From Trypanosoma brucei (taxonomy: Eukaryota), in NCBI GenBank assembly GCA_000002445.1, contig CP000070.1, forward strand, positions 1,184,001 through 1,248,000: a stretch of DNA of 64,000 nucleotides, read 5' to 3'. The notes below the pieces were generated by a model. The model was given only the letters and a program-made list of their open reading frames with translations, was not told the origin of the DNA and did no database searches. Below are positions 26,113 through 63,983 of this stretch, one piece after another; within the stretch, counting starts at the first letter, position 1; every line of letters starts with the position of its first letter. Made by a program: the position numbers and the translations under genes.

Positions 26113-26747
26113 CTTACCAACGTTGTCGTTATATCACAGCTATTTCTAAACTCCTTCTCCTTTGTTATTCAAGTTTTCCCCTGGTTCGCCACTAACCACT
26201 CGCTACATGAATAAAAAATGATGCGAAAAATAGTAGTAACAGATGAGTTCACGCAGCTCGCCGCCCAAAAGTAAGTAATGATGCAATGTTGCACAGTATC
26301 CAGTTTTCTTTCAATCATGCATCTCTCCACCCTCCGGCCTCCCTTATTTCCAAACCACGTCACCCTTTCATCCACCACAATAACCACACACTCCAACATA
26401 TTTCCGGCAATTGGTGGTGGTTGAAAAATCGCAATCAAACAAAGACTATATCCATTCACAACTACATCCAACACTCTTCCCCCCCCGTCCTCTCCACTAC
26501 TCAGACAAATGTGTACATACACACATCGCAGAGAAGTGACACTACGCAGTCACGAGCAGAGGAAAGGAACTTCTTACCTGCCAAATGAACCCTTTCCTTC
26601 ACTACCTCTCCACATATACAGCAACCAACGAAACACACTCACACGCACACGCACACACTCACCCACTTTATGATAATAAAAGACAGAACGCAACCACCAA
26701 AACGGGCCCACAGACTTACCCTTCCCATCCATATGAAATAAATTCGG

Positions 26748-31724: not shown

Positions 31725-33201
31725 TATTTAATGTATCGTCCAAACAAAAATGTCAACTCTAACGATGAATATCAAGCAGTACAAAACAAAAAAGAGAAGA
31801 GAAGAGGAAAGAAATCATATGGAAGCTCCTTGTCTTTCCTCTTCTGTCCCTCTTGACCCGTCTACTTCCCAGTTTCTCCGCTTACGTTAGGCAGAAGTAT
31901 CGTTCACCGAAGGGTCTTAATCAAGCTGAAGTTCCTTTACGCTGATTAGCCAATCTTTACAAATACGGTAACATCCACCTGGAAAACAAAAATAATGTAT
32001 ACACACTCACATATGTACTGGCGCGCGGTACAATTATTTATGGCATAGCAAAACTTTTGTGCCACATGCGATGATCAATAGGTCGAACATTAAAATTTAA
32101 AAAATCGCTACATGTGCGACAAGACAACAAAGATGGCAAAGCTTTCCTTACAAACCAAATTCACGCGCGCGCAATCACCTCCGTCATCGGCACGACAGGC
32201 CCCTTCGACCCCCCCCCAAAAAAAAAAAAATGCGCCCTCAGCTCCAACACAATCACCTCATCACTCAGGTGACGCGGCGGATGACCCAACGACTTACCAA
32301 CACACATTTTCATCAGCTCTGACTATTTGATTTTTTTCCCCTTCACACACAACTCCTCAATTGTCTCGATATGTTCCCTTTTTCCCCTCCAGACCACCTC
32401 CATGCGTTATTAACCCAGCAGGCACTCAACGCCTCCACGTAACAAATGCTGAAGGCAGTGTTAAAACTGTAAGACATCTTCACAAATACCTGAAACAGTT
32501 GATGATGGCCTCCGAATGGCACACAACTTTGACGGTGGTGGTGGGATGGTACTTGGAGGCGAAGACACAAAATATATGGTAACACAAAAGCGCCACTACG
32601 TGCAGCTTCGGTGGGGAAGTGGTGGGTGAGTACTGCAACTCAAGCAACCAACGAAGGGAGCGCTCAAAGGGATACAAAAAGTTGTGCTCAAACTTTTTGC
32701 GGATGCTCAGACTCCTAGCGGAAAGAAACCCAAAAGTAACACGCAGACGTGCACGTGCCACCGAAGTGGATACCATAACCTGAGGCGCCCTCCACAGCCC
32801 CTCTAACGCTGCAGCACAGAACACATATTTACGTATCACCTCATTGGAATGCTTTCAATGCACATGACCCAATCAACAGACGCCACTGATGAAACTCACT
32901 TTTATTACCAACGAATTAACGGTCACCTATTGCGTGGAGCACAAGAAATTCTCTTCAAAAAGTAAAACCGGTAAATAAGGGAGGAAATGCACTTCATAAA
33001 AGGGAAATAGCACGTTACGCATCGCTACTCTGCAAAACAAATCTAATCAAAACATACATATATGAAATTCTTGAGGTCTATGAGGCCAATGGCAAGAGGA
33101 GAGCAAAAAAAGTATGGGGTGTATAGTGCCTCTATAGAACCGACTTCTGCACCAGCACTAAGCACGTTATCGGTAACGATGGTGGACATATTCGACGTAT
33201 T

Positions 33202-34926: not shown

Positions 34927-35175
34927 TGTCACAAAAAATCTTAAGGACACTCTATGACCCCTATGACGTACACAAGTATCAAGGTTGGAGTATATATATA
35001 TATATATTTACGGGAAGAAAGTAAATAAGAAGCCTCAGTAAATTCAACACGACAAAAAAGTGGGTACAAGGTCGATCAGATGGAAACAATACCGAGTACA
35101 AGCTGCGCAAGTAATTAAGCATATCGATATTGTGTGTTGTTAGCGCAAACGAATCCTGCTACGCGTGCTATAGGG

Positions 35176-47909: not shown

Positions 47910-50900
47910 TTATATCCACCGCTCGCTCTTTACAGTATCAATATTGCGAATGATCTTTGTTACAGCAGGTTTTCCCCCCTCAAGGGTACACGTTTTTAAG
48001 GTCTCCCATAGATGACGCCTATCATCATCTTCTTCGCTGCTTGTGTAGTCAACCAAATCGTGCCCAGGAACCACCTGTGAGGTTTCCTCGTTTATGAGGC
48101 ACTTGAACAGTGCCCTTTTTCTTGCTTGGGCTTTTAAAACTGTGGCGTCTTCGAATCCCGATGCTAATTTATAGGCAATAACAGCCTTTGACTGATTTTG
48201 TCTGTAGCACCGCGCAATTGCCTGTGACTCAACCTGAGGATTCCACCACGTGTCCCACAGAATAACGTGATTCGCCGCAGTTAAATCAAGACCGTACGCG
48301 CCAATCTGAGTGGACACAACCAAGCAGAGTACGTTCTTATCATCCCTGAACATCTCAACAACCCTTCGTCGACGTTGCTGGCAATCTTTTCCACGAATTG
48401 TAACTACACTAATCTTATAAGCCGTCAAGGTTCTTGCAATGAAGTCTTGCGACCCAATGTATTGTGAAAATATCACAGCCTTTTCCATCTTCTCGAAAAT
48501 GCTGTGTAAAATCGAAATGAGGGCTGTTAGCTTACCACTGAGCGCAACAAAGTCGGCCAGTTTCCCGTTTTCAAGCAAACTTGAACAATCCTTCGCTAAA
48601 GCGTCATCATCACGGCTAAGCCTGTACGTTCCCAACTCTTCGAACTCCCCTGGTTCTTCTTCGATATCAACTTGACCTGTTCTCCATATACCGGTCAAAA
48701 AACCCAAGAAACACAGTGGATGTGTTGAAAGGTGGTATGGCCGATGTTCGGACGCCTTCAGACACAATAGGTTATCTGTTGCATCGACTTTAATGCGCTC
48801 CTCGAACATTTTCTGCTGCACAGCGGAAAAGTTGCATATAATAATGTAGTCGTGCAGCGGTGGAAGATCAACCTTCATAACGGTAAAGACATAGGGGCTC
48901 ATCCACTCGTGGATATATCGTTGTGCGAAGAGAGCATCACAAAAAGCACTATCATCACCGTTAACATAGCGGTTGATAGAGTTTGAAAACTCGTTAAAAT
49001 CGCGTTGCGGCAATGTGGAATGAACCTTGTCATCCACCCACCCAACAAGACGGTAGAGTTCCTCAGCGTTATTCTGCACCGGCGTCCCAGTGAGTACTAC
49101 CCTTGCCGAGCAATACAAACTATCCAGTACCTCCCTCAGTTTACTTTCCTTCGACGATATGCAATGGCCTTCATCAACGACTATGAGAGCGGGGCGGAAC
49201 CCCTTTACCCTCGAAAGAAATGATTTGATGTAGCCAGGATTGATGACAAAGACGTAACTCTTCTTAGGGTTAGTAGTTGTGCCTTGTTGTTCATAGTTAC
49301 TGAGATCATCCTCGAAGGAGCTGGAGTCCACGTTGTTTAGTACAATAAACCCCGGGAATACGAGACCATAGTCCTTCCACTTTTTCGCCTCCTGCATCCA
49401 GTGTTGAAGCAGTGTCTTCGGCGCAACGATCAGAATGTCACACGGCCCATTGTTGTAAATATAAGAATAGCAGATCGTCAGTGAAACCAGTGTCTTCCCA
49501 AGTCCCATTGTTAACGCCAGCACACAACCGTCTCCTTCCTTGATACGACGTGAAACAAATCTAAGGGCCGCATGCTGAGTTAAGCTCAGGGTCTTTGCTA
49601 TTTTGAAAGGAATACACAAAGGTGGAAGGTGGCCGGTGACTCCGTTCAAATTGACCACGCTGTCTGCGCTGTCAGCATGCAGACGATCGCTCATGATCTG
49701 GTTCCGGAGTCTCATGCTCCGCTCCGTTTCACATGTGTGGGACATCAACCCACACCGCAGATAGCATACAATGCTGATTCGTCTCCAACTTCCTTCACGA
49801 TTGTGTACTTCCGTGTTTCCGTGTTCCAGAGAACTGTCGAAAAATAAGACATCACCAACCTGAAGACAGAAGGCCTTGCGCGCACTTTTTAAGGCTAGGT
49901 AGCACCCCTCGTAATTACCGTCAAGTACGCAGAGTGCAGTAAGACCACCGCGAAAGTCACCTTTGTCTCGATGAACGGCGGTTCGAAAGTTCTTGTTCAC
50001 ACTTACAGTACTGAAAACGGTGTTGAATAGCATGTACTCAGGCGGTATGACCCTGCGCTGAAGTTCGTAATGGTCTGGGGCGTTTTCCTTGTATAGTTGA
50101 TCTAACAACTGCAGTAACTCACCACACGGTCCGATAATCTTACCCCAGTTCCTGCGTGTGAACTCAGTCATGCGGCACTTACGCTTCGTTGGATTGTTGA
50201 GATAGTCGTAATAGCCAAGGATACCCGTGTCCGGATTTCTCACACCACCATTTGTCAATCTCCGCATATTTTGTTTGGTAGCCACTCCCTCCACATCAGC
50301 TGCGGCACGTCGACAGATATCTTTATCAATGCCACCACGTATAAAGATGGCCTGCACACGCTTTCCGGTTGGGTCCAGCAAAACACTATCCTCGGTCACC
50401 AGCTCAAAATCCTTTTCAGAGAGGTACTCTGAAACCTTGCCTGTAGGGATGTCAACCACCTCGGTACCGGTAACGTCAAAGCCTTCATAAATATCATCCA
50501 CTGCATCCAGAGCAACAGGCGCAATGTTTACAGCTGCTTCAGCAGCATTGCGAGGGAATGGATCCATCGAACCGTCTAGATGGACCACAGTCCTCTTGAA
50601 TTGAACGTCCACGCGCTGTCCGAGAGGAAGCCTCTGTGTGAGAGCACCAGCTCGGAACTGACGGCGAAGTTCTTCACATACATTTTGCACAGGTCTGATG
50701 TGCAGAAGCGGAACAATATCGTACGCTTTTTGATATTCCTCATCAGAAGCGGTAACCAGTTCCGCACAGAGGTGGACAATTCGACATATGTAATCGCGAG
50801 GGTGGTAAAGAAGGCGGCACGGTAAGGATACACCTGGAGCCGTCGGGAATGTCTCCTCCAGGTTGCTGAACAGGGCCAAACGCTCTGCATCAGTCTTTAA

Positions 50901-51143
50901 CCCGTAGTAGTCTTTGCATAGCCTGGTAAGAGAAGATTCTGACATCGGTATTGGTGGTAGAATCGTGATGCCACCTTTCGGGATACTCACTAACTTCATT
51001 CCATGATTTTTAGCCTCGTCAACGATAACATCAAGTTCACCCAAGAAGGAACCGGGTATAACGATCGCTGGCTCACTCGTTACTAAGACAGTTTGTAGCA
51101 CCTGCTGCAGCACTTGAGACGCCCCATCCATAAACATAGGCAT
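47910..51143 (-). CDS. JBP2: J-binding protein 2: JBP-type Fe(II)/2-oxoglutarate thymidine hydroxylase domain fused to SWI2/SNF2 ATPase
   Basis: The N-terminal half carries the TET/JBP dioxygenase signature TAVHRDKGDFRGG (HxD) ... LEHGNTEV (distal His) ... SWRRISIVCY (2OG-binding Arg). The C-terminal half carries SNF2 motifs: LALTMGLGKTLVSL (I), LIVVDEGHCISS (II, DEGH), VLTGTPVQNNAEELYRL (III) and the helicase-C block CLVVSTQIGAYGLDLTAANHVILWDTWWNPQVESQAIARCYRQNQSK (V-VI). The track start at 51290 is GTG and is followed by a hydrophobic junk peptide. The first ATG is at 51141-51143 (MPMFMDGAS), giving 1077 aa. That is the length I recall for T. brucei JBP2. Confidence 0.93.
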   Translation of the reverse strand: MPMFMDGASQVLQQVLQTVLVTSEPAIVIPGSFLGELDVIVDEAKNHGMKLVSIPKGGITILPPIPMSESSLTRLCKDYYGLKTDAERLALFSNLEETFPTAPGVSLPCRLLYHPRDYICRIVHLCAELVTASDEEYQKAYDIVPLLHIRPVQNVCEELRRQFRAGALTQRLPLGQRVDVQFKRTVVHLDGSMDPFPRNAAEAAVNIAPVALDAVDDIYEGFDVTGTEVVDIPTGKVSEYLSEKDFELVTEDSVLLDPTGKRVQAIFIRGGIDKDICRRAAADVEGVATKQNMRRLTNGGVRNPDTGILGYYDYLNNPTKRKCRMTEFTRRNWGKIIGPCGELLQLLDQLYKENAPDHYELQRRVIPPEYMLFNTVFSTVSVNKNFRTAVHRDKGDFRGGLTALCVLDGNYEGCYLALKSARKAFCLQVGDVLFFDSSLEHGNTEVHNREGSWRRISIVCYLRCGLMSHTCETERSMRLRNQIMSDRLHADSADSVVNLNGVTGHLPPLCIPFKIAKTLSLTQHAALRFVSRRIKEGDGCVLALTMGLGKTLVSLTICYSYIYNNGPCDILIVAPKTLLQHWMQEAKKWKDYGLVFPGFIVLNNVDSSSFEDDLSNYEQQGTTTNPKKSYVFVINPGYIKSFLSRVKGFRPALIVVDEGHCISSKESKLREVLDSLYCSARVVLTGTPVQNNAEELYRLVGWVDDKVHSTLPQRDFNEFSNSINRYVNGDDSAFCDALFAQRYIHEWMSPYVFTVMKVDLPPLHDYIIICNFSAVQQKMFEERIKVDATDNLLCLKASEHRPYHLSTHPLCFLGFLTGIWRTGQVDIEEEPGEFEELGTYRLSRDDDALAKDCSSLLENGKLADFVALSGKLTALISILHSIFEKMEKAVIFSQYIGSQDFIARTLTAYKISVVTIRGKDCQQRRRRVVEMFRDDKNVLCLVVSTQIGAYGLDLTAANHVILWDTWWNPQVESQAIARCYRQNQSKAVIAYKLASGFEDATVLKAQARKRALFKCLINEETSQVVPGHDLVDYTSSEEDDDRRHLWETLKTCTLEGGKPAVTKIIRNIDTVKSERWI

Positions 51144-52304
51144 TGCCGTAACTGGTAGCGTAAAGAGGGGGTAAATAATGTAGTGAACAAAGAGGAGGAA
51201 GGAAAGAGTGAACGTCAGTGGTCTCGAGAATGACCGCAGGAATCTGCGTACTGAAAAGGTGCGAAAATGGAGTAACCGGGTAGCAAACACAACCCAAATG
51301 CAACATTCACAACTGCATATGCAAAGTAAACTACCTCCTTCACTACCTTCCGCAACACTTGTTGTGGTATTCAGTAGCAGAAAATTTGTCCCAAAACAAC
51401 ACTCCTACAACCCAAAACATGGAGGTAACAAGCCAGTTTAAGTCTACGCTAGTTTGCGGAATTTATCAGCATTGAGCCCTACACACGTGGATGGAAGACG
51501 CTTTCCTCTGTATTGCTTCACATATTCTCATCTCTGTTCGACAAAGAGTGAGCGCCCTGTACTGGCTTCATGTAAATAAGGGAAACATCATTTGTCTTCA
51601 TTCGCGTAGGTATTTTATCCAACAAAATCGGTTTCGTGTGTGTCCTATGGAAAAGGGTATAACTTTTCGCACAGATATTTTGAAATTATGCTTACCAAGG
51701 ATTCTAATGTGTATCTACATGAAAACAAGGAAAGAAAATCAAGCAGAACCAGGGGTACTTATTGTCCCATGAGCAACGCGGCTGCGGCCCAGGCACATCA
51801 TAAGAAATACACGATATGGTACACTCCCTCGTTTCTTTTGGGTAAGGGGGAGGTTTAATTTTTCGACATGTACACTTGTTGTGCAAATTACGCCACCCTT
51901 TAGCCCGCAACACCTGACATTATTTCCCCTTTGTCATAGAAGGATCCTCGCCACCTCTTACTGCGTGTGCTCATGGCGGCGTAGTAGGTGAGCCACCTTT
52001 GTGCCGTGTACACTGATACCCATTTCAAAGTACCCGTACCTACTGCTCCGACACCTCCTGTGCTCATCAGCGGCGCCGTACCAACGCCAGAAAGTAACTG
52101 GGAAGAGAAACGCTTACGAACAGTGGAGATGAAACGGGACGTAACAAACTCTAGCTCGATATAATTAGTTAAATCTTTGTCGCCAACTCGTATATTCGCA
52201 CACGTTGCCTTGGAAAAATAAATTAAAAAGTATCAACCCCCAAAGTCCGAGGGCGTGGATACGTCACGAATGAAATCCATTCCAACACACCAAACAAGGA
52301 ATGT

Positions 52305-53234
52305 TTACTTCCATGGAACACGCCGAGTGTCAATAAGTTCTGGCCCGCAGTGTTGTAAAAGCTGGCGAAGAGGGGGGCAGCTTACTAAATACGGTGGCAC
52401 TCGAAAATACGGATTGCGCTTAGACCTTGTTCTTCTTCCTGCATCACAGAGGTACATATCTTTAGATACAGAAGACAAAGCATTCTCATCGGTATAAGGC
52501 TTTGCCACCTGATAAGGCTGAAGATCTTCCACAAAAGGTTCAGCATCAGCGAAATCAAGTCCGACATAAGTGAATTTGTCAGCTGGAAAGCGTATTGCTT
52601 CTCTGTGGTACATTGTGAACCGCTCTGCCTTGTGCTTCCACCCAACAACAACAACCGATCCCGGAAAATGGCCTGTTACTTCATAGAACCGCGCAATACT
52701 AAATAAAAGGTTTTCGTATGAGTCTCTCGCAAACTCTTCGGTAAAAATTCTCCCATTCATAATATCCTTTGCCACATACTCAGGTTCAAATATGCCAAAG
52801 AGCTTTGACTCTTTTGCAACAATATAGTAACCCAAAGCTTCACTCCTCGGTCCCGCAATACCACACGTTTGACCACCTGAAAAAATTAGAATAGAAGTGT
52901 TTATTTGATCTCTAAGAATTTCCAATCCGCGTCGTATATGGGAGGCGAAACATAAAGGTAGAACAACGCCTGCTCGCAGTTGATGGGGTTCTAGGCACCA
53001 TTCGCTTTCGTTCTTCCATTCAGATGCATTTGGTGCATTCAGCACTCCGTGTCCAGGAACAATAATGAGTGTGTCCGTAGAAAGGTATTTAGGGTTAGCT
53101 TCCCTTTCTGCTGCACCACCCGGCGTGTCCGCTTGCAACAACAGTTTGGCACGTAGCAACGAAAACATTAAAACAATGAAGACAATTGCAATTAGTGGCC
53201 ACGTGCGACGCTTGTTTCTAAATCGTGTTCGCAT
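52305..53234 (-). CDS. DUF218 / YdcF-SanA-like domain protein with N-terminal signal anchor
   Basis: ATG at 53232-53234. One N-terminal TM helix (WPLIAIVFIVLMFSLL). The DUF218 pattern is LIIVPGHG ... ILIFSGG ... ARDSYENLLFS (conserved GG plus DSxEN). Confidence 0.68.
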   Translation of the reverse strand: MRTRFRNKRRTWPLIAIVFIVLMFSLLRAKLLLQADTPGGAAEREANPKYLSTDTLIIVPGHGVLNAPNASEWKNESEWCLEPHQLRAGVVLPLCFASHIRRGLEILRDQINTSILIFSGGQTCGIAGPRSEALGYYIVAKESKLFGIFEPEYVAKDIMNGRIFTEEFARDSYENLLFSIARFYEVTGHFPGSVVVVGWKHKAERFTMYHREAIRFPADKFTYVGLDFADAEPFVEDLQPYQVAKPYTDENALSSVSKDMYLCDAGRRTRSKRNPYFRVPPYLVSCPPLRQLLQHCGPELIDTRRVPWK

Positions 53235-53467: not shown

Positions 53468-54373
53468 TCAATAAATTGTACGCTTACGGGTGTTTATAGT
53501 GTCCAGCACCGTGGTCGTTATCAAATTCTGATTTCCGGGATATAAAATTTCGAATGGGCCTAGAACAAAATCAATAGACGCCTTGACCGCTGCTTCGATA
53601 GACTTATCAAACACCGGGAAACGAGCATTCCCCATTACCCGGATGCAGTTTGCAACACGTGTAACAGCGCGCCTAATGTCTGCGTCAAACCTATCGTATG
53701 CAGATTTGGCCGACTCGGTAGCGGTAGTTGCTGTTGCTGGACTGACCCATATAGCACCATTTGTGCCAAGAACCAGATTTACGTGTATGAACTCCAAACA
53801 CATAAAGTGGTGCTTGACACGTTTAACAAGAGCTGGTGAAATTAGTACCAGTAAACCAAAGTCGGATAGCTTCCCATACTTCTCTCCTGATCGGGTGTGT
53901 AAGGATATCAGGCCATCTTGAGAAACGCGCTGCACCTCGGCAACGACCAACTCCCCTTCGTCAAATATGTTCCTCATAGTAAGTTCATCACTTCGGCCCC
54001 TCCTCCTCAGGATGCCACCGGGTTCAGTGACATTAGCCAAAGGCATCACTGCATCCTGAAAGGCCCCAACATCAACACGCCATCGGTTACCACATACTTC
54101 CTTAACGCGCCCGACCACAATATCACCAACCTCTGCGACGTACCGGGAAGACATACCTTTAACTGAGACAACTCTGTCTGTTACTTCAACCATCCCATTG
54201 ATTGAGGCAATAATTTCTCCACCACCCTCTTGTGCTGCAGCTGCACCGTTCGGGTTGTTGCCTTCGTAAGTGTTGTATCCTCGGAGGAAAACATGATCTT
54301 CAACGTAATCGAGTTTTGAGGGGCCCGCAGACCCACAAATGGTGTCACCTGTTATGCACGTCGGGACACTCAT
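53468..54373 (-). CDS. RRP4: exosome complex subunit RRP4 (N-terminal domain + S1 + KH)
   Basis: Rrp4 layout: N-terminal VxPGDxI-like MSVPTCITGDTICG; S1 domain YVAEVGDIVVGRVKEVCGNRWRVDV...DELTMRNIFDEGELVVAEVQRV; KH-like C-terminal GAIWVS...IRRAVTRVANCIRVM. The track start at 54451 is GTG. In-frame ATGs lie at 54442 and 54373. The 26 residues between them are hydrophobic junk, so 54373 is the probable start. Confidence 0.85.
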   Translation of the reverse strand: MSVPTCITGDTICGSAGPSKLDYVEDHVFLRGYNTYEGNNPNGAAAAQEGGGEIIASINGMVEVTDRVVSVKGMSSRYVAEVGDIVVGRVKEVCGNRWRVDVGAFQDAVMPLANVTEPGGILRRRGRSDELTMRNIFDEGELVVAEVQRVSQDGLISLHTRSGEKYGKLSDFGLLVLISPALVKRVKHHFMCLEFIHVNLVLGTNGAIWVSPATATTATESAKSAYDRFDADIRRAVTRVANCIRVMGNARFPVFDKSIEAAVKASIDFVLGPFEILYPGNQNLITTTVLDTINTRKRTIY

Positions 54374-54700
54374 CACTACGAAGAGAGTAAACAAACAGTA
54401 GAGAAAACGATAGTAAAACAGAGGGGTTCGACAATGATGCATGATTTTCACAACAACGAATTAGCCGAACAACAGATTTGCGTGACAAAAAGGAAAAAAT
54501 ACGAACCACAGGCAAGTTAGAGGTCTAGGGGCTGTAAAGGGATGCAGGAAAATACAATTACGTGGCTGGATACGAAGCAGAGAGAAGAGTAGTGACCCAA
54601 AGTCGAAAGCAAAGTCAGAGAATACAGTATTTGCTAATGTTAATAACAAGGGAAAGAACGGCAGGAACGGACAAATTAAGTCGCGTTACTTCTTAAAGAA
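54374..54700 (-). promoter_or_regulatory. purine-rich (plus strand), i.e. pyrimidine-rich on the transcribed minus strand, leader and putative SL-acceptor region of RRP4
   Basis: The plus strand at 54374-54700 is dominated by A/G runs (gagaaaacgatagtaaaacagagggg, aaaaggaaaaaatacgaacc, gggaaagaacggcaggaacgg), giving polyY-AG elements on the minus strand upstream of the RRP4 ATG. Confidence 0.4.
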
Positions 54701-57700
54701 AAATGAGCTAAACCGACAACTTCAAGCATCTCCCCTGTGAACGCAACCCAGTTGCCGCAGTCAGACCCCAACCTCCAGTGGACAATGACAAGAAATACTT
54801 CTGCAAAAGAAGCTGTACAGACGGCAAAGGGGTACATTGGGGGTGTAGACGGAGAGAGAGACTTTTTACCCGCATGATCCTACTTGACAACGTGTCACAC
54901 CGTCAAGGGAACGCTTAAAAAATGCAGCGTATGCTATTTCAGTCGTGATTTACAATATCTATTTCCCCCTCCTTTCCAGCTCCTGCAGCAACGGACAATG
55001 AGTAAATATTACAAGGGCAGCCATCTTTGTCGAGATCGCACAGAACCCTTTAACGTCGGTGGTGCATAACACCCCACCCCTTCCTTCCCCACGAACTAGC
55101 GGATGCACACGTACCTCATTATACTGAACAGTTCAAGATCCACCACCTAAGAAGCGCTAAAACAAAAAGAAATGGGTGTGGGACCGCACCAATCGAAACG
55201 ATCTTTTCAAACTGAGAAAGGTGATTGAAAGGCCCCAATACATTACGAGTGCGGTTATCTGCACCAAGCTGCGTTGACGGGAACCGCTGGCGGCAAACGA
55301 CGAGGAAAGAAAGTGGCCAAAAGCACTAATGCATCGGGCATGAATAGGGAGGGGGTGATCCCACGAACCGATCACCAAAAAAGGGAACGACGTCACTTCG
55401 ACGTCGTTCTCTTTCGCCACACACGCCCACGCGCATCCCCGGATAAAAAATAAGATTGAACAAAAATGAAAGGGAAGGAGGGAAAAGGAGAAGGGCAACG
55501 ACGAGCCGCAGCGCATAGCAAAAGTGAGCCTCCATAAGACAGATGTGTGAAAAGGGGAGACCACCCAGTGGCCAATACTACCGTCCCCAAAACGAGGGCT
55601 GTACTGCCAGCACCACGCCACACTAGTGGGAGCTGACGGCACTCGGACACACCGCCATGCGCAGGTCCCGGGGCTAAGCCGGTTTTTAGGCCGCTTTCTG
55701 CAAAACCTGAACGAGTAGTGGGGGCTTAAGTCCACCCCTACCAGCAAAGGGCGGCGCTTTTGGTCACTTCGAGGCACCGGGAACCACCATTGGACATGTT
55801 ATTTCCGGCCCCCCGTCCATTAGCCTTCTGGGGCCTCAAAAATAGACAACAGCCGCCACCCCGGACGCGCGTTTTGGAATCTAAGCGCAAAGGGGCTGCC
55901 GCAGAAACCGGGTTGACATCGGTATTGGGGTCACAACGGTGGTTTAAAAGAGTGATCCCTCAGCGGGCCCTTGCCTAAATAAAAAGAAAACCGAATCGCG
56001 CCGGCGCTCGTCGAGCAAAGCTTCGCCTTTGCGGAGAGGCACCCGGCTGAACGAGTTGTTGTTGGGTTATATTCCGAGAATTTTGCAGGGGGTGGCTTCT
56101 TCGGGTCATAACATATGTACCCCACTTCCTCCTAGGATGGGTGTGTAATTTGACTGGAGAGTCGGGGAACATGAGCAGGGTGTTTTGTGTTCCACCGGTC
56201 AGGGGGCCGGGTTCTTTTTTTCATAAACGTCTATAGGTACGGGGTGTCTATTTTTGGGAGGAGTGCGTAGCCTGTTCCCTTATAGGCGTCCACGCAACTT
56301 CAGGCGAAAAATGCGGAAGAGAAAAAAAGAGGGTTGAACGACAGCGGCTTTTTACCTTTCGCTGAATATCGTTTCGTGAACTGTGTATAGTAGAGTTTCT
56401 GAATTTTTGGTCTCGCTACACTGTGTCATTTTAGCGAAATGAACTACGCAACGGTGTGGGCTTTGTTTTACATGCAGACGACAGCCGTGCCACCCGGCAT
56501 GTACCTGACGCACTTGACGGACCGCTGTCTCCTGGCCATTCCCTCATGTTACGGTGGCAACGTGTGGGGGAAAAGGTGGCGCTAGCCGTCGCGGCTCGCA
56601 CGGAGTTGAGATGTTGTGCAACTCGAAAACCAGCCACTTCCGTTTGTACAGCGTGGTTCTTGTAGGGGGACAAATGGTTGTTTATTTATACATTTAAGTG
56701 GCACATCAAAAGGATATGCGCGGCAGGGTTGTTCAGCCTCTTTGACAAGTACCCACAGCGGGAAACGCTTTTCGTTCCCCCTTTAAATGCGGTGCCTCCC
56801 AAAAACTGAGACGAAGGTCACTCGTGTGTGTGCATCCCTTCTCAATTTTCAAATGGTTAGCGGAAGTACGTCGCAGTCGAAAATGAGAACTGCTTCTGCC
56901 AACAAGAAACCCAACCGGGACACAAAATCGTACCACGAGTGAACGCTCAGTGGCCCGGGTAGTACTCAGCTTCTACCTTTTTATTTATGCGGGAAGGTTT
57001 AACGGCTGTGCTCCGTCTTTGCACCGCTGTTATTTCGTTGGGGGGAAAGTTTAAGGGGGGAAACTACAAAGTCTTTCAGAGAATAGGATGCTTTGGAACA
57101 CTTTCCTACCTTTGAACTATCTGTAATGGTAAGGATGTTGGGAAGAGGACTTGGGAGGGAATTTCGACCGTTTTGTTTGGAGAGCGCAGTGACGCTAAGA
57201 CAAAGGAGCCGTTGCAAAGGACGCGCCAAATAGCATTTAAATCCTGGGTGTAAAACGCGGGGTCATGTGCTTGCTCTGCTAAGTTTAATTTAATTTGTGC
57301 ACACACGCTCATGTGCATGACAATCCAATGGGTTTGAACCTTTCGGTTGATGTGAGAAGACAGAACAGAAAGTGCCGGGTGGAACCACCAATTTTTATAA
57401 CCAACGGCGCGCCACTGGGTCTACGGATGTGCCTGCAAGTTAGCAATCTGTAGAGTGTCCGTGGTGAAGTAGCAGCTGTCGTTTCAAAACTTTAAAATTC
57501 TCTGCTGAATATGTTGTACGATAGCGATGTGGAAACGTGTCATGTTATCTTGTGCCGTTTATCACACTGACAATGCAATAAGGTTCGCCAACAATTCACT
57601 GCGAAACTAAACTAGCACAACGTCATCAAAGGTGAAGCGCTAGGGGTACGTACGTGTTTTTCGTGGGAAACCATGTTTGCGTGAATTTCAGCAACACAAT

Positions 57701-59930
57701 TGGTGTGTTCGATGAAACAATTCCATTGAAGTTAGTAACTGTTGCCTCTTACAGATTTGTTGAGGGACACAAGACACGTCGTACCGTCCGAAATTACTAT
57801 GCCTTCAGCTGAGCTAAAGGGGACTTATGCGACGCTCCCTATATTATTGGTGATTTTTTCTTTAAAGTTTATGAAAGGTAAAATCTGTTACCTTTTGTTA
57901 ATTGGGGAGCTGGGGACAGAAATTTTGTGTGGGTTATACAAGTCGTTTTGACGGAGATGTTAAGCATTACTACAGCTTTGATATACGCACACTGCTGTTT
58001 TCGATTGACGTGTGAAAACAGAGTGGCATGGCGTTGGGCAGTATAGCAAGCAGTAACACATCAGTTCTCGTCGTGAAGCGGTTACTCGTCGCCGTTACTT
58101 GACATCCACCCACTGTATACACAACAGTCTACCCGTTATCCTTACAAGAGCAGTTGTTCTGACCTTATCATGTGACTGTGATAGGGGCATTCTGTTATTC
58201 ATCTTGCAAAATTTTCGGACCGCCGCCAAGTGACTTCTCCAAGAAATAATTGGAACACACCTCCACAGAAGTTGATGATCATTTATTTATTTATTTAAAA
58301 TCACGTCACAATCAGAGGAGATGTGCAGATGCGGCAGTAGGGTAGTTGAGTTTTATTTCATGTTGACACCGAGGCACTTCAACTGCGCGAGAAGAAAATA
58401 CTTAAGATGTAGTCTCGTGCTCCAAACTAGTTTGCATAATCAGTGAGAAGTATTGTGCAGATTGTGGTAGCGTTTTTTTTCTAATAAAAAAACCGCTGGG
58501 GTGCCCACTACTTGTGTGTACTTGATTTGATTTGGCAACTGCCAACACTGTTTGTGAAGATGGTGGCAGTTAGGAGTTGTTCGTGTACGATCAGCTCACT
58601 GAATTTTTAACGCGATACCCGTTGTGCACACCGATTCAAGTAGAAAATGGGTGACGGCAACACCAACACGTTGCGGAACCGACGTTTGTCGGTGATGGAC
58701 GATGGTTTTGCGATTCCACATGCCGTTAAACGTTACTACTCAATGCTTTGATAACAGAGGCATTGTCTTTGCTTGAAAGGTACCGCTACTGTTCTTAACC
58801 TTACATAACTAATTATCGGCCGTCTGTTTGTATTTGTTTTCAGCTTGTCCAAATCGGTTTTTGTGAGGGTGTCGTGCGATGTTGCACTCTAACACACTTG
58901 ATCTAACAACGGCTGCTGTTGTCGTTTCCGTTTTGGTGCCGATCCTGCACCTCTTCGAAAAATATGTTGAGGGGCAGACAACAGCGTAGACAAAGGCGTG
59001 GTTATGCCTGATATGTGCTTATATTTTAAAAAATGCCAGCAACTGTCGTCACCCCTTTAACTTGGTGGGCCGCCGGCGCCAAGTGGTTTAATACTCGTCT
59101 TGGCGTAGGTAATGCATATTGGTATTTGCTGCTCAATGTAAACGAGCACGTTGCTGTAAGCCGTTGTTACGACCAGCATCAGGGCATGACGACTAAATTC
59201 TGAATCCCCTCTCGCTGTGTAATTGATTTCCGTGCATTTGAGAGCCGGCGCAGCTTACCGTTAACAAACGTTCACATACTCAGCCTTCTTACAGCTGTAG
59301 AATAAGTCTAGTAACGAACACTAAAGTAACACGAAAGCACAAAAAAATGCTGGTGATATCTTTTCTTTTCGGTGCCGCGAGCAACTGACCTTAAGCCGCC
59401 AGTCGAGCTTTGAGTAAAGAAGGGCAGTCGCATGAACATTACAATTTGTCCGAATTTGTTTCCTTTGTTACCACAAGTTATTTGTTGCAGTGGTCACTTG
59501 GTGAGCGGTATTCGTTTTATGATGAATGCTGTTGTTGTTTTTTTTTTGTTACTTCTCTCGAAGCCTTTGCTCACGAAGAAAATACCCAAGCTTACTCGAA
59601 TTTTGTTTTGCCATTGGCGGTTACCGGGGCCACAAAGCTCGAAAGGCACAACGTGAAGGATATAGGGGGGGGGGCATATTTATGTCCGTGATGGAGTCCA
59701 TCAACGAACCAAGACCCGTTTGCATCCCTATTTTACTCAGCCTTCGGATTTGTTCGAGGTGCAGACTCAATGCGCCAGTTTATTTATTTATGCTTATTTA
59801 CTAGATTTCTTCTAAGACGTTGGGAGGGTGCCACTCCCGGAATGATACCTTTCAATATCTCCTGGCAATGGCATTGCATACAAGAACGAAGCTAACGCTA
59901 CTCTATACCCCACTTCTCTCTCATCAACTT
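54700..59930. other. about 5.2 kb stretch with no convincing CDS and atypical composition (balanced GC, few polyY or microsatellite tracts); candidate transcription-unit boundary or degenerate retroelement
   Basis: The only ORFs here are short, W/C/R-rich and mutually overlapping (for example 55157..55777). There is no listed ORF of 60 aa or more between 57951 and 59410. The GT-rich plus-strand segment at about 58400-58900 differs from all other spacers in the window, which are CT- or A-rich. Confidence 0.5.
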
Positions 59931-59974
59931 TATTGTGTTCCACGTCTTGCGCAATTGCTGTTTGTAGGTGCAAG

Positions 59975-60241
59975 ATGGGAAAGCAAAAGAAGCGGCTTCC
60001 AAAGCAAAAGCGGAAAGTCCCTATGGCAGAGCGCTCCCGTAAGCTAACAAAAAAGGGAAAACTTAAACGCCGACGCGGTGACCTGAAAATGGTCCACAAT
60101 CTCGATGTCAGTTTCCCCGTGAAGCAAAAGAAAGGTGGAAAGTGGGTGAGAACGGGTGAGCGCCGCTGCAACGTACACACGGTTTGCAATTGTGTTAACC
60201 GCACGGATCCCACCAAAATGGCACGAGTGACGAATCGTTGA
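59975..60241 (+). CDS. candidate small basic protein (88 aa) on the plus strand, hypothetical
   Basis: ATG at 59975-59977 (MGKQKKRLPKQKRKVPMAERSRKLTKKGKLKRRRGDLKMVHNLDVSFPVKQKKGGKWVRTGERRCNVHTVCNCVNRTDPTKMARVTNR). The track start at 59933 is TTG. A plus-strand polypyrimidine tract (ctctataccccacttctctctcatcaactttattgtgttcc) followed by AG lies immediately upstream. This is the only gene-like element on the plus strand in the window. It could be spurious. Confidence 0.3.
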   Translation: MGKQKKRLPKQKRKVPMAERSRKLTKKGKLKRRRGDLKMVHNLDVSFPVKQKKGGKWVRTGERRCNVHTVCNCVNRTDPTKMARVTNR

Positions 60242-61992
60242 GGACCCACCCAACACACCTGGAGATAGCAGTAAAGTGTGTTTTCCCTGCAGTGTCAGAC
60301 GTGCGCCTTCCACCGCTCACGGAAAGCGTTATGTTCCCCACGTAAGGGAAGAGGCCGCGTACGCGTACGTGGCTCAGGTGCCGTCACCTCGTCGGCCATA
60401 CGCACAAAGCACCCGCAGTCACAACTCTGCGGTCAACCGTGCACCCCCGTACTAACCCATTGGCCAACCATCTCACCGCGTACCTTTTTACTTATTCAGT
60501 CCTTTTTTTTTTCTTGGTTTTAGAGTTCACTATGTAAAGGCGGTGCGCAAGCCAGTGTAGTATTCGGCGGGGATTCGAATGCGGGGAGGCTCCAAGACAG
60601 CAACCCAGCAGCAGCGGCTCGGCTGGAGGAGAACTGGAGAGGGGAAGGGAAGGGGGCGGCGCGGAAGCATCGCGGCAGCGTGGGTCTCCAAGGCTGACGT
60701 TTAGGAGGTCCGCCACGAACCCGGCACCTGTTCCCGACACACACGCGGGATTTAGAGGCAACACCCCCGCCCCGTGGATTTAGGAAGTATTGGGGAATAT
60801 GCTCTAACTGGTAAAATAAAAGGGGAGCAAGGAGGTAACCTCTGGAAAGGCGATGGAAACTGTTTTCCGGGTGGCATAACCGACGTTTGGACAGAAGGGG
60901 CGCCCAAAGAGGAAGGCGATACGGGACGAAGGAACGAAGAGATAAACCGCCCACGCGGCCACCCAGGGGAAAGGGAAACCTAACTCACTGAAAATTTATT
61001 TCAAGAAGCCAGCAGCCACGCGAGCACGGGCCCTCTGGACACATAAGTTTCTCGCTTTTAGAAACTGGCAACTGAGAAAACATTTCAACTCGCATGGAGA
61101 GTTTGTCTTTCCAAAGAGGCGCGAAATTTGGGGACTGTATATGGGGGAGGAGGGCTTGGGCGCAAGGCACCGGTGTAATAGAAGGTAGGAAAGCACAACC
61201 CGGACCGTGAGCAAGATTCGCCAAGCGCGGTTCAACTCCTCCGTTGTTTCCGCACTGAAAGCGGTCGGTCACAAGCTCTCGCCCCGGCGCGCGCCGGTGG
61301 CGGTTTGTGGCTGCTCTTGTGATCCGTCGGTGGTTTAGGTGATGCGTTTTACTTCTCAAACGCGCCGTCGCCCACATTTGAATCTACCTGCCTAAACAAT
61401 TGAAAGAACAGAAGGAAACGCGCAGATGGCAGCGAAGAGACCACCGGCTTAGCGCCTCGCAGTCCGCGCATCACCCCACTTCCGACCGCATTCAAAGTGG
61501 AATTTAGCAATTCTTCTTTCACACCCCTGCCGACACACAAAAAGAAAATAATAGTAATATTGACAATAATGATAATGATGAACAACCCGGGAATATAGTC
61601 AACGTGTGGCTAAAAAATAAATAAATAAAAGGGACCCTCGCACGAACACACAAGACAGCGCGTCCGAAGATTTTCGGCGACGGTTTGTGCGTCTGCGACC
61701 GAATATTCAATCCACTGTTAATCATCCTCCACACCCTCCTACTTTAACCACATCGTTTCTGTTTCAAAAGTCAACCCCTTTTTCGTTTCACATTTTTATC
61801 CATTACATGTTTCCCCCTTAATGCGCGGACCCTCACCTCGTAGCTCGGTTTACTTTAATTCATTTTACCCCCACGCACCTATTTTCCCCAGACGATCCCG
61901 TTTTCTTTCCTTCTTTTTATCCCCCCTCTTCCCGTTCCCCGCTCGCTCGTTAACGCTCGCTCCGTCGATAACATTAATTTTTCGCACGAGAC

Positions 61993-62244
61993 TCACTTTG
62001 TCGCTTCGTTTCGGACTTCCTTGACGGCCTTAAGGACGTTCTTCGGTAGTTTGGCGGTGGCAAATATGAGGTTGGTGCGGCGGTCCAACTCCGACTTCAA
62101 CTCATCCACCCTCCCCGATTCCTCCTTCTCGTCCCGCCTTCCACCGGCGCCTCCCGCTTGCGGTTTCGGAGCGCGACCCGCGTCCTGCGCATCTCCCCTG
62201 CTGCCGCCGGCTTGGGGCTTTGCTGCTCCGCCTCGTCCCTTCAT
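61993..62244 (-). CDS. candidate small protein (83 aa) with G/A/P/Q-rich N-terminus and conserved-looking C-terminal helix
   Basis: ATG at 62242-62244 (MKGRGGAAKPQAGG...VDELKSELDRRTNLIFATAKLPKNVLKAVKEVRNEATK). A same-sized plus-strand ORF (62021..62320) overlaps it. I prefer the minus strand from composition and local strand context. Confidence 0.3.
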   Translation of the reverse strand: MKGRGGAAKPQAGGSRGDAQDAGRAPKPQAGGAGGRRDEKEESGRVDELKSELDRRTNLIFATAKLPKNVLKAVKEVRNEATK

Positions 62245-63230
62245 TTCTCCTTTGAATTGTAAATGGCACGCGGTTATTCAATTGATGTGTTTGGATAATG
62301 TGTCCGATACGCCCAATTAATTAATATTATAAGCTAGACGGTGTGAATTGCCGCGTATAACCAACTGGGCAGATGAAACTGCGCGCTTGCTTCCTTTTTC
62401 GGATGCGTGTATGTCTTAACTGACGCTTTTGCCTTCTCGATATAAAGATGATGGGCTCATGGTACAGCGCACGGGCGACAGGGAGGCCATGACAGTGTGA
62501 ACGGCCATGGATGGGTGTCAGCGGCGACACAAAAACAAAACAACAACAAGTGATTGGCAAAGAGGAAGGGGAGGGGACGGAAAGAAATACGGAATAAATT
62601 GTGAAAATCGTGAAGGCCCGCCGCTTTCACATCCATAATCCCAACGCATTTCCACAAAAAAGACCACAGTACTCGGTAACGCAGGGAACGTTCAGGCTTC
62701 AGCCGATGCAAGCAATACGAATTTAAAAACACAGAGAACCTCTTTCAGCAAGGTGAAAACGCGACGAGTCCACGTGAAGACAAAAAAAAGGGCAATAAAC
62801 CACACAACAAAGTGCAAGGGATGGTTTCGCACACGGTGAATCACCTTATCATTCGACTAGGGCGCAAAAATTAACAACAATACCAACTTTCCCCCCTTTA
62901 AAGAATGAGGGGGAAAAAAAAAGAAACACCCCTCCTCCCTCTTTTCCGCGCCTCTTTATTATGGGGCCAAAAAACACATATACCTCACCTCCGGTGTTGG
63001 TCAAAGCTTTTAAGACCCCCTGACGGGAGCAACAACGACTGCAAAGAGACGGTAAACACACAAGAAGAGTGAAGAAGAAATGACAAAAGGGGAAAGGGAG
63101 GAACAAAACGCACTAAACATGGGCATGTATGCCCCAAAATCTCCTCCCGCCCAGCCACCCGGAAAAGCACAGAAACTCGGGTGACGGCATGCACGTCGCG
63201 CGGAAGAAGAGGGAAGAAAAAGAGTCCTGT

Positions 63231-63983
63231 TCAAGAGTCCGCGAAAGCTTGAAGCTCCCGCTCACTGAAACCCGATGCAATACGTTTGTGGTAGCATATT
63301 GTCCTACAAAACTGCCTCAACGCCATTGACCCCAGAACAAACAACACAATGACCATCAACACTATGGAACTTAAGAGAATAATGTAGAAGGGTTTCTCAT
63401 TCCTTTCCGGTGGGACCGGGGGCGGTGGTGGCGTAGGGCCGGGTTCTGGTCCTGGTTTTGGCCCAGGTGGAGGTTGTAACCCCGAAATGGCAACCTTAGC
63501 CGCTTCATTTCCCGCCGCCACTGCCATCGGTACCTGCTGCGCTGCTCCCTGGCGGGCCTCACTCGCGGCGCCGACAATACCCTCCAACTCCCGTAATAAT
63601 TTCTCAGTCTCGGTGAGGTTCGCCCGTATGGTCGGGTCTTTCACAAACGGTAGCGCCCGTTGCATGGCGTCATTCAGCGAGTCTGCTGTGACGTTCTTTC
63701 TCTCCCTCTTGTTACATTTGTCAGTGACGTGCTGCCTAAACGAAACCTCCGCATCATCCACTAAGTGCTTGAGATACCCGTTCGCCACCTCAGCGCACTG
63801 CACAACACGCACTGCGGCATCCTTGAACTGCGACCACAGTCCTCGGACCCTTTGGATTTCTTCGTTACACAGAACGATTGCAGTTCTTACTTTGTTAAAC
63901 GCGGCCAAAACAACTTCAATAGCTTCAGCTGACTGTGAGGAAGCCGCCCGCAGCACGGCGGCGTAGGCCTTTCGTACTTCCAT
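63231..63983 (-). CDS. single-pass membrane protein, possibly N-terminally truncated by the window end (proline-rich stalk + TM + short cytoplasmic tail)
   Basis: ATG at 63981-63983, but the frame stays open to the window edge at 64000. PPPGPKPGPEPGPTPPPPPVPPE stalk, TM helix FYIILLSSIVLMVIVLFVLGSMAL, then a basic tail RQFCRTICYHKRIASGFSERELQAFADS. The antisense ORF 63487..63966 is low quality. Confidence 0.45.
   Translation of the reverse strand: MEVRKAYAAVLRAASSQSAEAIEVVLAAFNKVRTAIVLCNEEIQRVRGLWSQFKDAAVRVVQCAEVANGYLKHLVDDAEVSFRQHVTDKCNKRERKNVTADSLNDAMQRALPFVKDPTIRANLTETEKLLRELEGIVGAASEARQGAAQQVPMAVAAGNEAAKVAISGLQPPPGPKPGPEPGPTPPPPPVPPERNEKPFYIILLSSIVLMVIVLFVLGSMALRQFCRTICYHKRIASGFSERELQAFADS

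What the first reader, a model, noticed from the sequence alone, without database searches (positions are those of the whole stretch)
58400..58900. GT-rich plus-strand segment unlike any other spacer in the window
Across about 500 bp the plus strand is dominated by G and T (tttgtatttgttttcagcttgtcc, ggtttttgtgagggtgtcgtgcgatgttg, gattgtggtagcgtttttttt). All other intergenic regions are CT-rich or A-rich on the plus strand. Strand-asymmetric GT-rich tracts have been described as sufficient Pol II promoter elements in T. brucei. This one points toward the plus-strand ORF at 59975.
Basis: partly seen in the sequence, partly recalled or inferred. Interest (0 to 1): 0.5.

Follow-up and report, generated by a model that had tools for sequence, protein, structure and literature searches.

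The report
Known trypanosome divergent transcription start region
The flagged G/T-rich stretch is an unexceptional slice of an already-mapped region on Trypanosoma brucei chromosome 7 where RNA polymerase II starts transcribing in two opposite directions, so its base bias mainly records which strand is transcribed there.

Summary
The window is T. brucei TREU927 chromosome 7, 1,184,001-1,248,000. The flagged 500 bp is real but only mildly G/T-rich (56.5% against a window mean of 47.5%). It is not a discrete element. It lies inside a 3.8 kb plus-strand G/T-skew domain (56,020-59,830) that begins at the global minimum of the window's cumulative skew curve. That point is the divergent strand switch between RRP4 (Tb927.7.4670, minus) and lepp12 (Tb927.7.4680, plus). 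Kolev et al. 2010 (Table S14) already list both as starts of Pol II units, with lepp12 as a single-gene unit. They also map a plus-strand spliced transcript (Tb7.NT.51, 59,284-59,856) just downstream of the flagged tract.

Measured on the transcribed strand, the flagged tract is ordinary: 42% of windows in internal spacers are at least as G/T-rich. It carries one published "GT-promoter" 10-mer on each strand, no dense G/T tract, and shows no constraint against T. b. gambiense. The motif-rich stretch, including the only plus-strand G10 run, is at 59,455-59,674.

Verdict: the locus-level reading is right and already known; the claim for this specific segment is unsupported. In passing: lepp12 appears to have been relocated into an ancestral unit boundary in the T. 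brucei lineage.

The parts
53468..54442 (-). RRP4 (Tb927.7.4670), first annotated gene of the minus-strand Pol II unit Tb927.7.4670->4250
   Evidence: Pfam RRP4_S1 + KH_6. Exact match to T. brucei TREU927 RRP4. Published CDS 1238442-1237468 fixes the window offset at 1,184,000. Table S14.
54519..55156 (-). Published novel transcript Tb7.NT.50 (minus strand, low abundance), upstream of RRP4
   Evidence: Kolev 2010 supplementary file 23: 1239156->1238519 (-). The 'ct' at 55157-58 reads as an AG splice acceptor on the minus strand.
54452..56019 (-). Minus-strand half of the divergent strand-switch spacer (A/C-rich on plus, so G/T-rich on its own sense strand)
   Evidence: Plus-strand G+T is 0.43. 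200-bp profile.
56019..56020 (.). Skew switch point: global minimum of the cumulative (G+T)-(A+C) curve of the 64 kb window
   Evidence: The G-C curve alone has its global minimum at 55,862.
56020..59830 (+). Plus-strand G/T-skew domain: the plus half of the divergent Pol II start region. This is the real unit that contains the finding.
   Evidence: G+T 0.545, excess +343, the largest of any 3.8 kb stretch; slope +90 per kb against -59 and -71 per kb on either side. Binomial P 1e-17. No ORF longer than 93 aa, no Pfam domain in six frames, no Rfam or tRNA hit, no repeats.
58400..58900 (+). The flagged segment (chr7 1,242,400-1,242,900): an unexceptional slice of the domain, 400-900 bp upstream of the first mapped plus-strand splice acceptor
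   Evidence: G+T 0.565. One published 10-mer per strand. No dense G/T 30-mer. 1.8% divergence from T. b. gambiense.
59282..59283 (+). AG splice acceptor of Tb7.NT.51: the first mapped plus-strand RNA-processing site, so plus-strand transcription must start upstream of it
   Evidence: Sequence 'tcag|c' at 59280-59284 matches the published 5' end 1243284.
59284..59856 (+). Published novel transcript Tb7.NT.51 (572 nt, plus strand)
   Evidence: Kolev 2010 supplementary file 23.
59455..59674 (+). Cluster of published coding-strand 10-mers, including a T/G-dense tract (59520-59556) and the only plus-strand G10 run in the window (59665-59674)
   Evidence: GGGGGGGGGG is the top-ranked 10-mer in Wedel 2017 Dataset EV1 (132 coding vs 17 non-coding). 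The run is G8 in T. b. gambiense.
59975..60241 (+). lepp12 (Tb927.7.4680) CDS, the sole annotated gene of the plus-strand unit
   Evidence: Exact match to XP_846091 'phosphoprotein lepp12'. 75% identical to the T. cruzi orthologue. Table S14.
60242..60416 (+). lepp12 3' UTR up to the major poly(A) site
   Evidence: Kolev 2010 poly(A) table: 1244416, 3' UTR 175 nt.
60417..61487 (.). Convergent gap of about 1.07 kb between the lepp12 poly(A) site and the poly(A) end of Tb7.NT.52, the last transcript of the minus unit Tb927.7.4960->4690
   Evidence: The cumulative skew turns negative again after 59,830.
61488..62455 (-). Published novel transcript Tb7.NT.52 (967 nt, abundant), carrying an 83-aa ORF at 61993-62244

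Best explanation
The flagged tract is part of the plus-strand half of a known divergent RNA polymerase II transcription start region on T. brucei chromosome 7, between RRP4 (Tb927.7.4670, minus) and lepp12 (Tb927.7.4680, plus). Strand composition flips at about 56,020. To the left, the minus strand is the G/T-rich sense strand. From 56,020 to about 59,830, the plus strand is. Most likely mechanism: Pol II initiates in a dispersed fashion on the plus strand somewhere between about 56.0 and 59.28 kb, inside a broad open-chromatin promoter of the kind described for this parasite. The primary transcript is trans-spliced at 59,283 to give Tb7.NT.51, spliced again just upstream of the lepp12 ATG, and polyadenylated at 60,416. 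It then meets the converging minus-strand unit. The coding-strand G/T bias of the whole domain favours sense over antisense initiation. The flagged 500 bp contributes only as one ordinary piece of that domain. What is shown: the polarity flip and its extent, the gene identities, the published unit boundaries, and the published transcripts with matching AG acceptors. What is inferred: the exact initiation positions, any causal role of G/T composition at this locus, and chromatin marks.
For: Organism and coordinates. Both published 5' ends sit next to AG dinucleotides in the sequence. Divergent arrangement: all long ORFs from 1 to 55.8 kb are on the minus strand, and lepp12 is on the plus strand. 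Published initiation mapping: Table S14 lists 4670->4250 (-), 4680->4680 (+) and 4960->4690 (-), all 'Divergent'. It was derived from 5'-triphosphate-end RNA-seq and agrees with histone-mark sites. Plus-strand transcription through 59,284: Tb7.NT.51. Skew domain. Its direction agrees with the published 10-mers, 11 on plus against 1 on minus in 56,020-59,974. The 5.5 kb spacer fits the published description of 5-10 kb dispersed promoters containing GT-rich tracts (PMC12227686; PMC5579346). Nothing else is in the spacer: no domains, RNAs, repeats or relics.
Against: Table S14 gives units, not base coordinates, so initiation inside 58,400-58,900 is neither shown nor excluded. No H2A.Z, H4K10ac or Pol II ChIP tracks could be read. 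The strongest motif signature (G10 and T/G tracts at 59,455-59,674) lies downstream of the first splice acceptor, so part of the lepp12 initiation could occur there, downstream of the flagged tract. The G/T level of the domain equals that of ordinary transcribed spacers, so composition alone cannot separate promoter from transcribed leader.
Confidence: 0.72

Rival explanations
1. The flagged 500 bp is itself a discrete, sufficient GT-rich Pol II promoter element in the sense of Wedel 2017, and it drives lepp12.
For: It lies upstream of the first plus-strand splice acceptor, in the correct orientation, within a mapped start region. It holds three short G/T-rich strings with 75-86% G+T. Wedel 2017 found that all TSR fragments tested gave some reporter activity.
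Against: It holds one published coding-strand 10-mer on plus and one on minus, so there is no asymmetry. Its density (2 per kb) is below that of ordinary internal spacers (7.55 per kb). It has no 30-mer with at least 26 G/T. G+T of 0.565 is the median value for any spacer on its sense strand. It is not the richest part of its own domain. It is the most diverged of the regions compared with T. b. gambiense.
Confidence: 0.12
2. The G/T bias is purely a passive by-product. Transcription-associated mutational asymmetry, plus the usual U-rich and polypyrimidine content of trypanosome non-coding RNA, makes any transcribed strand G/T-rich. The domain is then just the transcribed leader of the lepp12 unit, and the composition plays no causal role in initiation.
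For: The bias has the same magnitude as in internal spacers that are not start regions (0.545-0.565 against a mean of 0.558). The published 'promoter' 10-mers are commoner in internal spacers than here. G/C and T/A skews that follow transcription direction are long known in L. major and T. brucei (cited in PMC5579346). The skew flips within 0.5-1.5 kb upstream of RRP4 in T. cruzi and T. melophagium too.
Against: Synthetic G/T-rich sequences drive orientation-dependent transcription and H2A.Z deposition in T. brucei (PMC5579346), so a causal contribution is established in principle. This rival also agrees with the best explanation on the locus being a start region. The two differ only on cause versus consequence.
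Confidence: 0.35
3. The domain hides an unannotated plus-strand gene, a non-coding RNA gene, or the decayed remains of a gene or retroelement. In that case its composition is coding or relic composition, not promoter composition.
For: The 5.5 kb spacer is long for a single 267-nt gene. lepp12 was relocated in this lineage. Synteny breaks in trypanosomes often carry retroelement debris (general knowledge).
Against: No ORF exceeds 93 aa. Pfam finds nothing at E<=0.1 in all six frames of 55,800-59,974. There is no tblastn trace of the T. cruzi neighbours of lepp12. No tRNA. No Rfam hit even at E<=1. No repeats inside the spacer or shared with the rest of the window. The only published transcript in the domain is Tb7.NT.51, which lies outside the flagged tract.
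Confidence: 0.04
4. It is a chance fluctuation of base composition.
For: The excess is modest, about 2 sd for a 500-bp window.
Against: Binomial P is 3e-5 for the segment and 1e-17 for the domain. The domain has the largest excess in the window and begins at the global minimum of the cumulative curve, exactly in the divergent spacer.
Confidence: 0.01

Closest known systems
Divergent strand-switch-region Pol II transcription start regions (dispersed promoters) of T. brucei (Siegel 2009; Kolev 2010; Wedel 2017)
   Same: It lies between divergent gene arrays and is listed in Kolev's Table S14. The promoter-bearing spacer is several kb long. The coding-strand G/T skew flips at the switch point. 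There is a G-run on the coding strand near the first gene, and low-abundance spliced non-coding transcripts flank the switch.
   Different: Nothing essential. The plus-strand unit holds a single gene, one of about 16 single-gene units in the part of Table S14 read here. The density of published 10-mers upstream of the first splice site is low, at 1.5 per kb.
Synthetic GT-rich promoters GT_210_nt and GT_416_nt (Wedel et al. 2017, PMC5579346)
   Same: The same strand logic applies: G/T-rich on the strand to be transcribed.
   Different: The synthetic elements are concatenated strand-biased 10-mers and are nearly pure G/T runs. The flagged tract is 56.5% G+T, has one such 10-mer on each strand, and has no dense tract. 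The closest natural match in the window is 59,455-59,674, not the flagged segment.
Transcription-direction-linked strand compositional asymmetry in trypanosomatids (McDonagh 2000; Siegel 2009; both as cited in PMC5579346)
   Same: G>C and T>A on the sense strand across entire units. The cumulative skew extremes coincide with the strand switches at 56,019 and 59,830.
   Different: This is a genome-wide property and not an element. It explains the observation without invoking a promoter.
Mammalian CpG-island-type dispersed, bidirectional promoters
   Same: Broad initiation zones, divergent transcription, and definition by chromatin rather than by motifs. Kolev 2010 draw this analogy.
   Different: There is no CpG-island composition here (GC 0.39-0.56). 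The output is polycistronic or trans-spliced, and directionality is linked to G/T skew.

Membership tests
T. brucei divergent-SSR Pol II transcription start region | Lies between two gene arrays transcribed away from each other | tested here: met
   RRP4 and all upstream genes are on the minus strand; lepp12 is on the plus strand.
T. brucei divergent-SSR Pol II transcription start region | Experimental initiation signal (5'-triphosphate RNA ends) assigning unit starts to the flanking genes | tested here: met
   This was a literature look-up, not a new experiment. Kolev 2010 Table S14 lists 4670->4250 (-) and 4680->4680 (+) as 'Divergent'. Resolution is at unit level only.
T. brucei divergent-SSR Pol II transcription start region | Coding-strand G/T skew that reverses at the switch point | tested here: met
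   The cumulative skew has its global minimum at 56,019. Slopes are -59 per kb to the left and +90 per kb across the domain.
T. brucei divergent-SSR Pol II transcription start region | Enrichment of H2A.Z/H2B.V and H4K10ac over 5-10 kb | not testable with these tools
   No ChIP tracks were accessible. Kolev 2010 state that their sites coincide with the histone-mark sites of Siegel 2009.
GT-rich promoter element sensu Wedel 2017 (applied to 58,400-58,900) | Excess of the strand-biased 10-mers on the coding strand over the non-coding strand | tested here: not met
   One on plus and one on minus. Density is 2 per kb, against 7.55 per kb on the sense strand of ordinary internal spacers. The feature is met instead at 59,284-59,974 (6 on plus, 0 on minus).
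GT-rich promoter element sensu Wedel 2017 (applied to 58,400-58,900) | Long stretches of G or T (dense G/T tracts, G-runs) | tested here: not met
   No 30-mer with at least 26 G/T, and no G-run of 7 or more, in the segment.
GT-rich promoter element sensu Wedel 2017 (applied to 58,400-58,900) | Orientation-dependent reporter activity and H2A.Z deposition when placed ectopically | not testable with these tools
   This requires transfection and ChIP.
Sequence-specific focused Pol II core promoter (Cordon-Obras et al. 2022) | Presence of the functional motifs of the 75-bp promoter under a Pol II ChIP-seq peak | not tested
   The paper is not held and I do not know the motif sequences. Citing papers give no motif.

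The most novel reading that the evidence does not exclude
lepp12 sits inside a co-directional array in T. cruzi and in two unnamed trypanosomatid assemblies (TruD ... 598-643-aa protein -> lepp12 -> Cullin_binding, with a 165-438 bp upstream spacer). In T. brucei it has been moved, alone and in opposite orientation, into the ancestral boundary upstream of RRP4. There it became a single-gene Pol II unit with a 3.8 kb G/T-skewed upstream domain that has no detectable homology to anything. If that domain, or a focused element within it that might overlap 58,400-58,900, arose de novo after the relocation, the locus would be a natural case of promoter birth in an organism whose Pol II promoters are still poorly defined. 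It would also be a compact one-gene system for dissecting them.
Probability: 0.15. Interest if true: 0.45.

Novelty: already known. Interest (0 to 1): 0.12.

Why it matters
It matters little as a discovery. The locus is already catalogued as a divergent Pol II start region, and G/T strand skew at such regions has been described since 2000-2017. The useful lesson is methodological. In trypanosomes, a plus-strand G/T-rich spacer among A/C-rich ones signals a change of transcription polarity. It should be judged on the transcribed strand before being called a promoter element. The side observation has modest value for anyone wanting a minimal natural Pol II unit to dissect: lepp12 is a relocated single-gene unit parked in an ancestral unit boundary.

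Tried and rejected
- Rfam at gathering threshold on the whole window and at E<=1 on 54,452-63,230: nothing. ARAGORN: no tRNA.
- Six-frame Pfam on 55,800-59,974 for retroelement or pseudogene relics: nothing at E<=0.1.
- tblastn of ten T. cruzi genes surrounding lepp12 against the window: only lepp12 itself matched.
- Self-blastn of the spacer against the window, the repeat finder and TRF: only short two-copy chance matches.
- Cordon-Obras 2022 promoter motifs: the paper is not held under its DOI or PMID, and citing papers give no motif.
- Chromatin-based start-region coordinates: the Staneva 2021 supplements have no chr7 entries for these genes. Full-text search for Tb927.7.4680 found nothing. 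The 'lepp12' literature is only Leishmania serodiagnostics.
- Species identity of the unnamed lepp12 loci L005-L008: the neighbouring proteins occur only in unnamed Logan assemblies. The relocation therefore cannot be dated to Trypanozoon versus all African trypanosomes. A T. congolense RRP4 exists in the database but with no contig.
- Constraint test against T. b. gambiense: overall divergence is only 1.2%, so power is low. The flagged piece shows 9 substitutions in 501 bp, no lower than background.
- The bacterial-type promoter and terminator scanner was not used, because it does not apply to trypanosome Pol II.
Full report
**What the window is.** Pfam finds a Tet_JBP + SNF2 fusion (JBP2) at 47910-51290(-), RRP4 at 53468-54451(-) and a GARP-like protein at 63231-63983(-). 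These mark a trypanosome. Exact-sequence look-up identifies the DUF218 protein at 52305-53234 as T. brucei brucei TREU927 XP_846089. It identifies the 88-aa plus-strand ORF at 59975-60241 as XP_846091, 'phosphoprotein lepp12'. Published CDS coordinates for Tb927.7.4650 (1235143-1231910) and Tb927.7.4670 (1238442-1237468) match window positions 51143-47910 and 54442-53468. The window is therefore Tb927_07_v4 1,184,001-1,248,000 in chromosome orientation, and the flagged segment is chr7 1,242,400-1,242,900. The offset is confirmed independently. The published 5' ends of Tb7.NT.51 (1243284, +) and Tb7.NT.50 (1239156, -) fall immediately after an 'ag' at 59282-83 and a 'ct' at 55157-58.

**Checking the observation.** The three quoted strings are present at 58460-58480, 58827-58850 and 58856-58884. 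The segment is A 0.240, C 0.196, G 0.238, T 0.327, so G+T = 0.565. The window-wide mean for 500-bp windows is 0.475 with sd 0.046. The segment is in the top 2.3% of plus-strand windows, with binomial P = 3e-5. The bias is real but mild.

The coordinates, however, do not bound anything. A 200-bp profile shows G+T of 0.39-0.475 from 54,400 to 56,000, and 0.48-0.60 (mostly 0.51-0.60) from 56,001 to 59,800. The cumulative (G+T)-(A+C) curve falls steadily at -59 per kb from position 1 to its global minimum at 56,019. It then rises at +90 per kb to a local maximum at 59,830 and falls again at -71 per kb. The domain 56,020-59,830 has the largest plus-strand excess of any 3.8 kb stretch: +343, against +247 for the runner-up. 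That runner-up is a Pro-rich coding repeat of a minus-strand gene at 33202-34950.

**What the domain is.** All long ORFs from 1 to 55.8 kb are on the minus strand, and lepp12 is on the plus strand. In T. b. gambiense, lepp12 is a lone conserved plus-strand gene with minus-strand arrays on both sides; two small unconfirmed ORF calls lie nearby, one on each strand. Kolev et al. 2010 sequenced 5'-triphosphate-end-enriched RNA and summarised the putative Pol II start sites in Table S14. They state that these coincide with the histone-mark sites of Siegel et al. 2009. The table lists three units here, all of type 'Divergent':
- Tb927.7.4670 -> Tb927.7.4250 (-)
- Tb927.7.4680 -> Tb927.7.4680 (+)
- Tb927.7.4960 -> Tb927.7.4690 (-)

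The same paper maps the following transcripts:
- Tb7.NT.50, window 55156->54519, minus strand
- Tb7.NT.51, window 59284->59856, plus strand
- the lepp12 major poly(A) site, window 60416
- Tb7.NT.52, window 62455->61488, minus strand, abundant

The RRP4-lepp12 spacer is therefore an already catalogued divergent Pol II start region, and lepp12 is a single-gene unit. About sixteen such single-gene units appear in the part of the table read. Plus-strand transcription must begin upstream of 59,283. The flagged tract lies 400-900 bp upstream of that first processing site.

**Is the flagged tract special?** Four tests say no.

1. Normalising to the transcribed strand: 500-bp windows in 13 internal spacers of the minus unit have sense-strand G+T of 0.558 +/- 0.045, and 42.5% reach 0.565 or more. 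The flagged value is simply what T. brucei non-coding sequence looks like on its sense strand.
2. Published motifs: Wedel et al. 2017 defined GT-rich promoters from 10-mers that are at least 6-fold enriched on the coding strand of 199 start regions (Dataset EV1; text). I scanned for all 157 unambiguous ones:

| Region | Plus-strand hits | Minus-strand hits |
|---|---|---|
| Flagged 500 bp | 1 (2.0 per kb) | 1 (2.0 per kb) |
| 56,020-59,283 | 1.5 per kb | 0.3 per kb |
| 59,284-59,974 | 8.7 per kb | 0 |
| Internal spacers of the minus unit | 2.09 per kb (antisense) | 7.55 per kb (sense) |

The motif-rich stretch is 59,455-59,674. It contains a T/G-dense tract (59,520-59,556) and the only plus-strand G run of 8 or more in the window (G10 at 59,665-59,674). 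GGGGGGGGGG is the top-ranked 10-mer in Dataset EV1.
3. Dense tracts: 30-mers with at least 26 G/T occur twice on the plus strand (7273-7324 and 59520-59556) and 27 times on the minus strand. None lies in the flagged segment.
4. Constraint: against T. b. gambiense (98.8% identity over 14 kb) the flagged segment has 9 substitutions in 501 bp (1.8%). That is the highest of all regions compared. The domain as a whole shows 1.2%, and coding sequences show 0.2-1.3%.

**Is anything else hidden there?** No. There is no ORF above 93 aa, no Pfam domain in six frames, no tRNA and no Rfam match even at E<=1. There are no tandem, direct or inverted repeats beyond short chance pairs, no similarity to the rest of the window, and no relic of the genes that flank lepp12 in T. 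cruzi.

**Mechanism.** The best-supported account is that this is the plus-strand half of a dispersed, divergent Pol II promoter region. Current descriptions are of 5-10 kb regions that contain GT-rich tracts and are marked by H2A.Z/H2B.V and acetylated H4 (PMC12227686). Synthetic G/T-rich sequences can drive orientation-dependent transcription and H2A.Z deposition (PMC5579346). I infer dispersed plus-strand initiation between about 56.0 and 59.28 kb, then trans-splicing at 59,283 (Tb7.NT.51) and again just upstream of the lepp12 ATG, polyadenylation at 60,416, and termination in the 1.07 kb convergent gap before Tb7.NT.52. The main rival is not a different object but a different causal arrow. 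The skew may be only the passive signature of transcription direction, given that its magnitude equals that of non-promoter spacers. The two cannot be separated from sequence alone.

**Evolutionary context, found in passing.** lepp12 is well conserved, 75% identical to T. cruzi. In three T. cruzi assemblies and in two unnamed trypanosomatid assemblies it lies inside a co-directional array: TruD (where the contig reaches that far) ... 598-643-aa protein -> lepp12 -> Cullin_binding protein. The upstream spacer there is only 165-438 bp. RRP4, conversely, is the first gene of its array in several species. In T. cruzi an opposite-strand trans-sialidase lies 2.3 kb upstream. In T. melophagium an opposite-strand gene fragment lies near a contig end. 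In L. tarentolae RRP4 is 2.7 kb from a contig end. lepp12 is absent from the RRP4 neighbourhood in T. vivax, T. cruzi, T. melophagium and L. tarentolae. The unit boundary upstream of RRP4 therefore looks ancestral, and lepp12 appears to have been moved into it, alone and inverted, in the T. brucei lineage. The timing could not be resolved.

**Verdict.** Novelty: already known. Interest: low.

Noticed in passing
window 59975-60241 (+); loci L001-L012: lepp12 is a relocated gene. In T. cruzi and two unnamed trypanosomatid assemblies it sits inside a co-directional array between a 598-643-aa protein and a Cullin_binding protein, with a 165-438 bp upstream spacer. In T. brucei and T. b. gambiense it is a lone opposite-strand gene next to RRP4. 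RRP4 is the first gene of its array in T. cruzi, T. melophagium and L. tarentolae, so lepp12 seems to have landed in an ancestral unit boundary.
   Followed up: partly
window 61488-62455 (-), ORF 61993-62244: The published transcript Tb7.NT.52 is abundant (value 29.45 in Kolev 2010, listed among the highly expressed transcripts). It carries an 83-aa Gly/Ala/Lys-rich ORF that is annotated only in T. equiperdum and T. b. equiperdum as a hypothetical protein. It has no Pfam hit.
   Followed up: no
window 33202-34950 (-), strongest at 34001-35000: This is the most G/T-rich plus-strand block in the window (0.66-0.70). It is not a spacer but a Pro-rich repeat region of a minus-strand gene (Pfam Cornifin hit), with TGGTGGTTGC recurring at multiples of 24 nt on the plus strand.
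   Followed up: no
window 5782-5792, 13992-14000, 26479-26486, 32209-32217: These are C9-C11 runs on the plus strand, so G-runs on the sense strand of the minus unit, sitting in internal spacers. G10 is the top-ranked start-region 10-mer in Wedel 2017, yet Kolev's Table S14 lists no internal start inside Tb927.7.4670->4250.
   Followed up: no
window 59665-59674 (+); L001 9693-9700: The plus-strand G-run upstream of lepp12 is length-polymorphic: G10 in TREU927 and G8 in T. b. gambiense.
   Followed up: partly
window 58468-58499 (+): Inside the flagged segment there is an imperfect A/T-rich inverted repeat (agcgtttttttt ctaat aaaaaaaccgct). Three of the eleven sites in the flagged segment that differ from T. 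b. gambiense (58472, 58485, 58497) fall in it. No RNA gene was detected next to the T8 run.
   Followed up: no
window 55157-55777 (-); L001 5178-5537: A 119-aa gene is called here in the T. b. gambiense annotation, corresponding to a 206-aa GTG ORF in the window. It has no Pfam hit and no exact match in the protein collection. It lies just upstream of the Tb7.NT.50 splice acceptor, inside the minus half of the start region, and is probably a spurious call.
   Followed up: no
window 60417-61487: The convergent gap between the lepp12 poly(A) site and the end of Tb7.NT.52 is only about 1.07 kb and is relatively GC-rich (0.52-0.64). It is presumably a termination zone for two converging Pol II units.
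   Followed up: no
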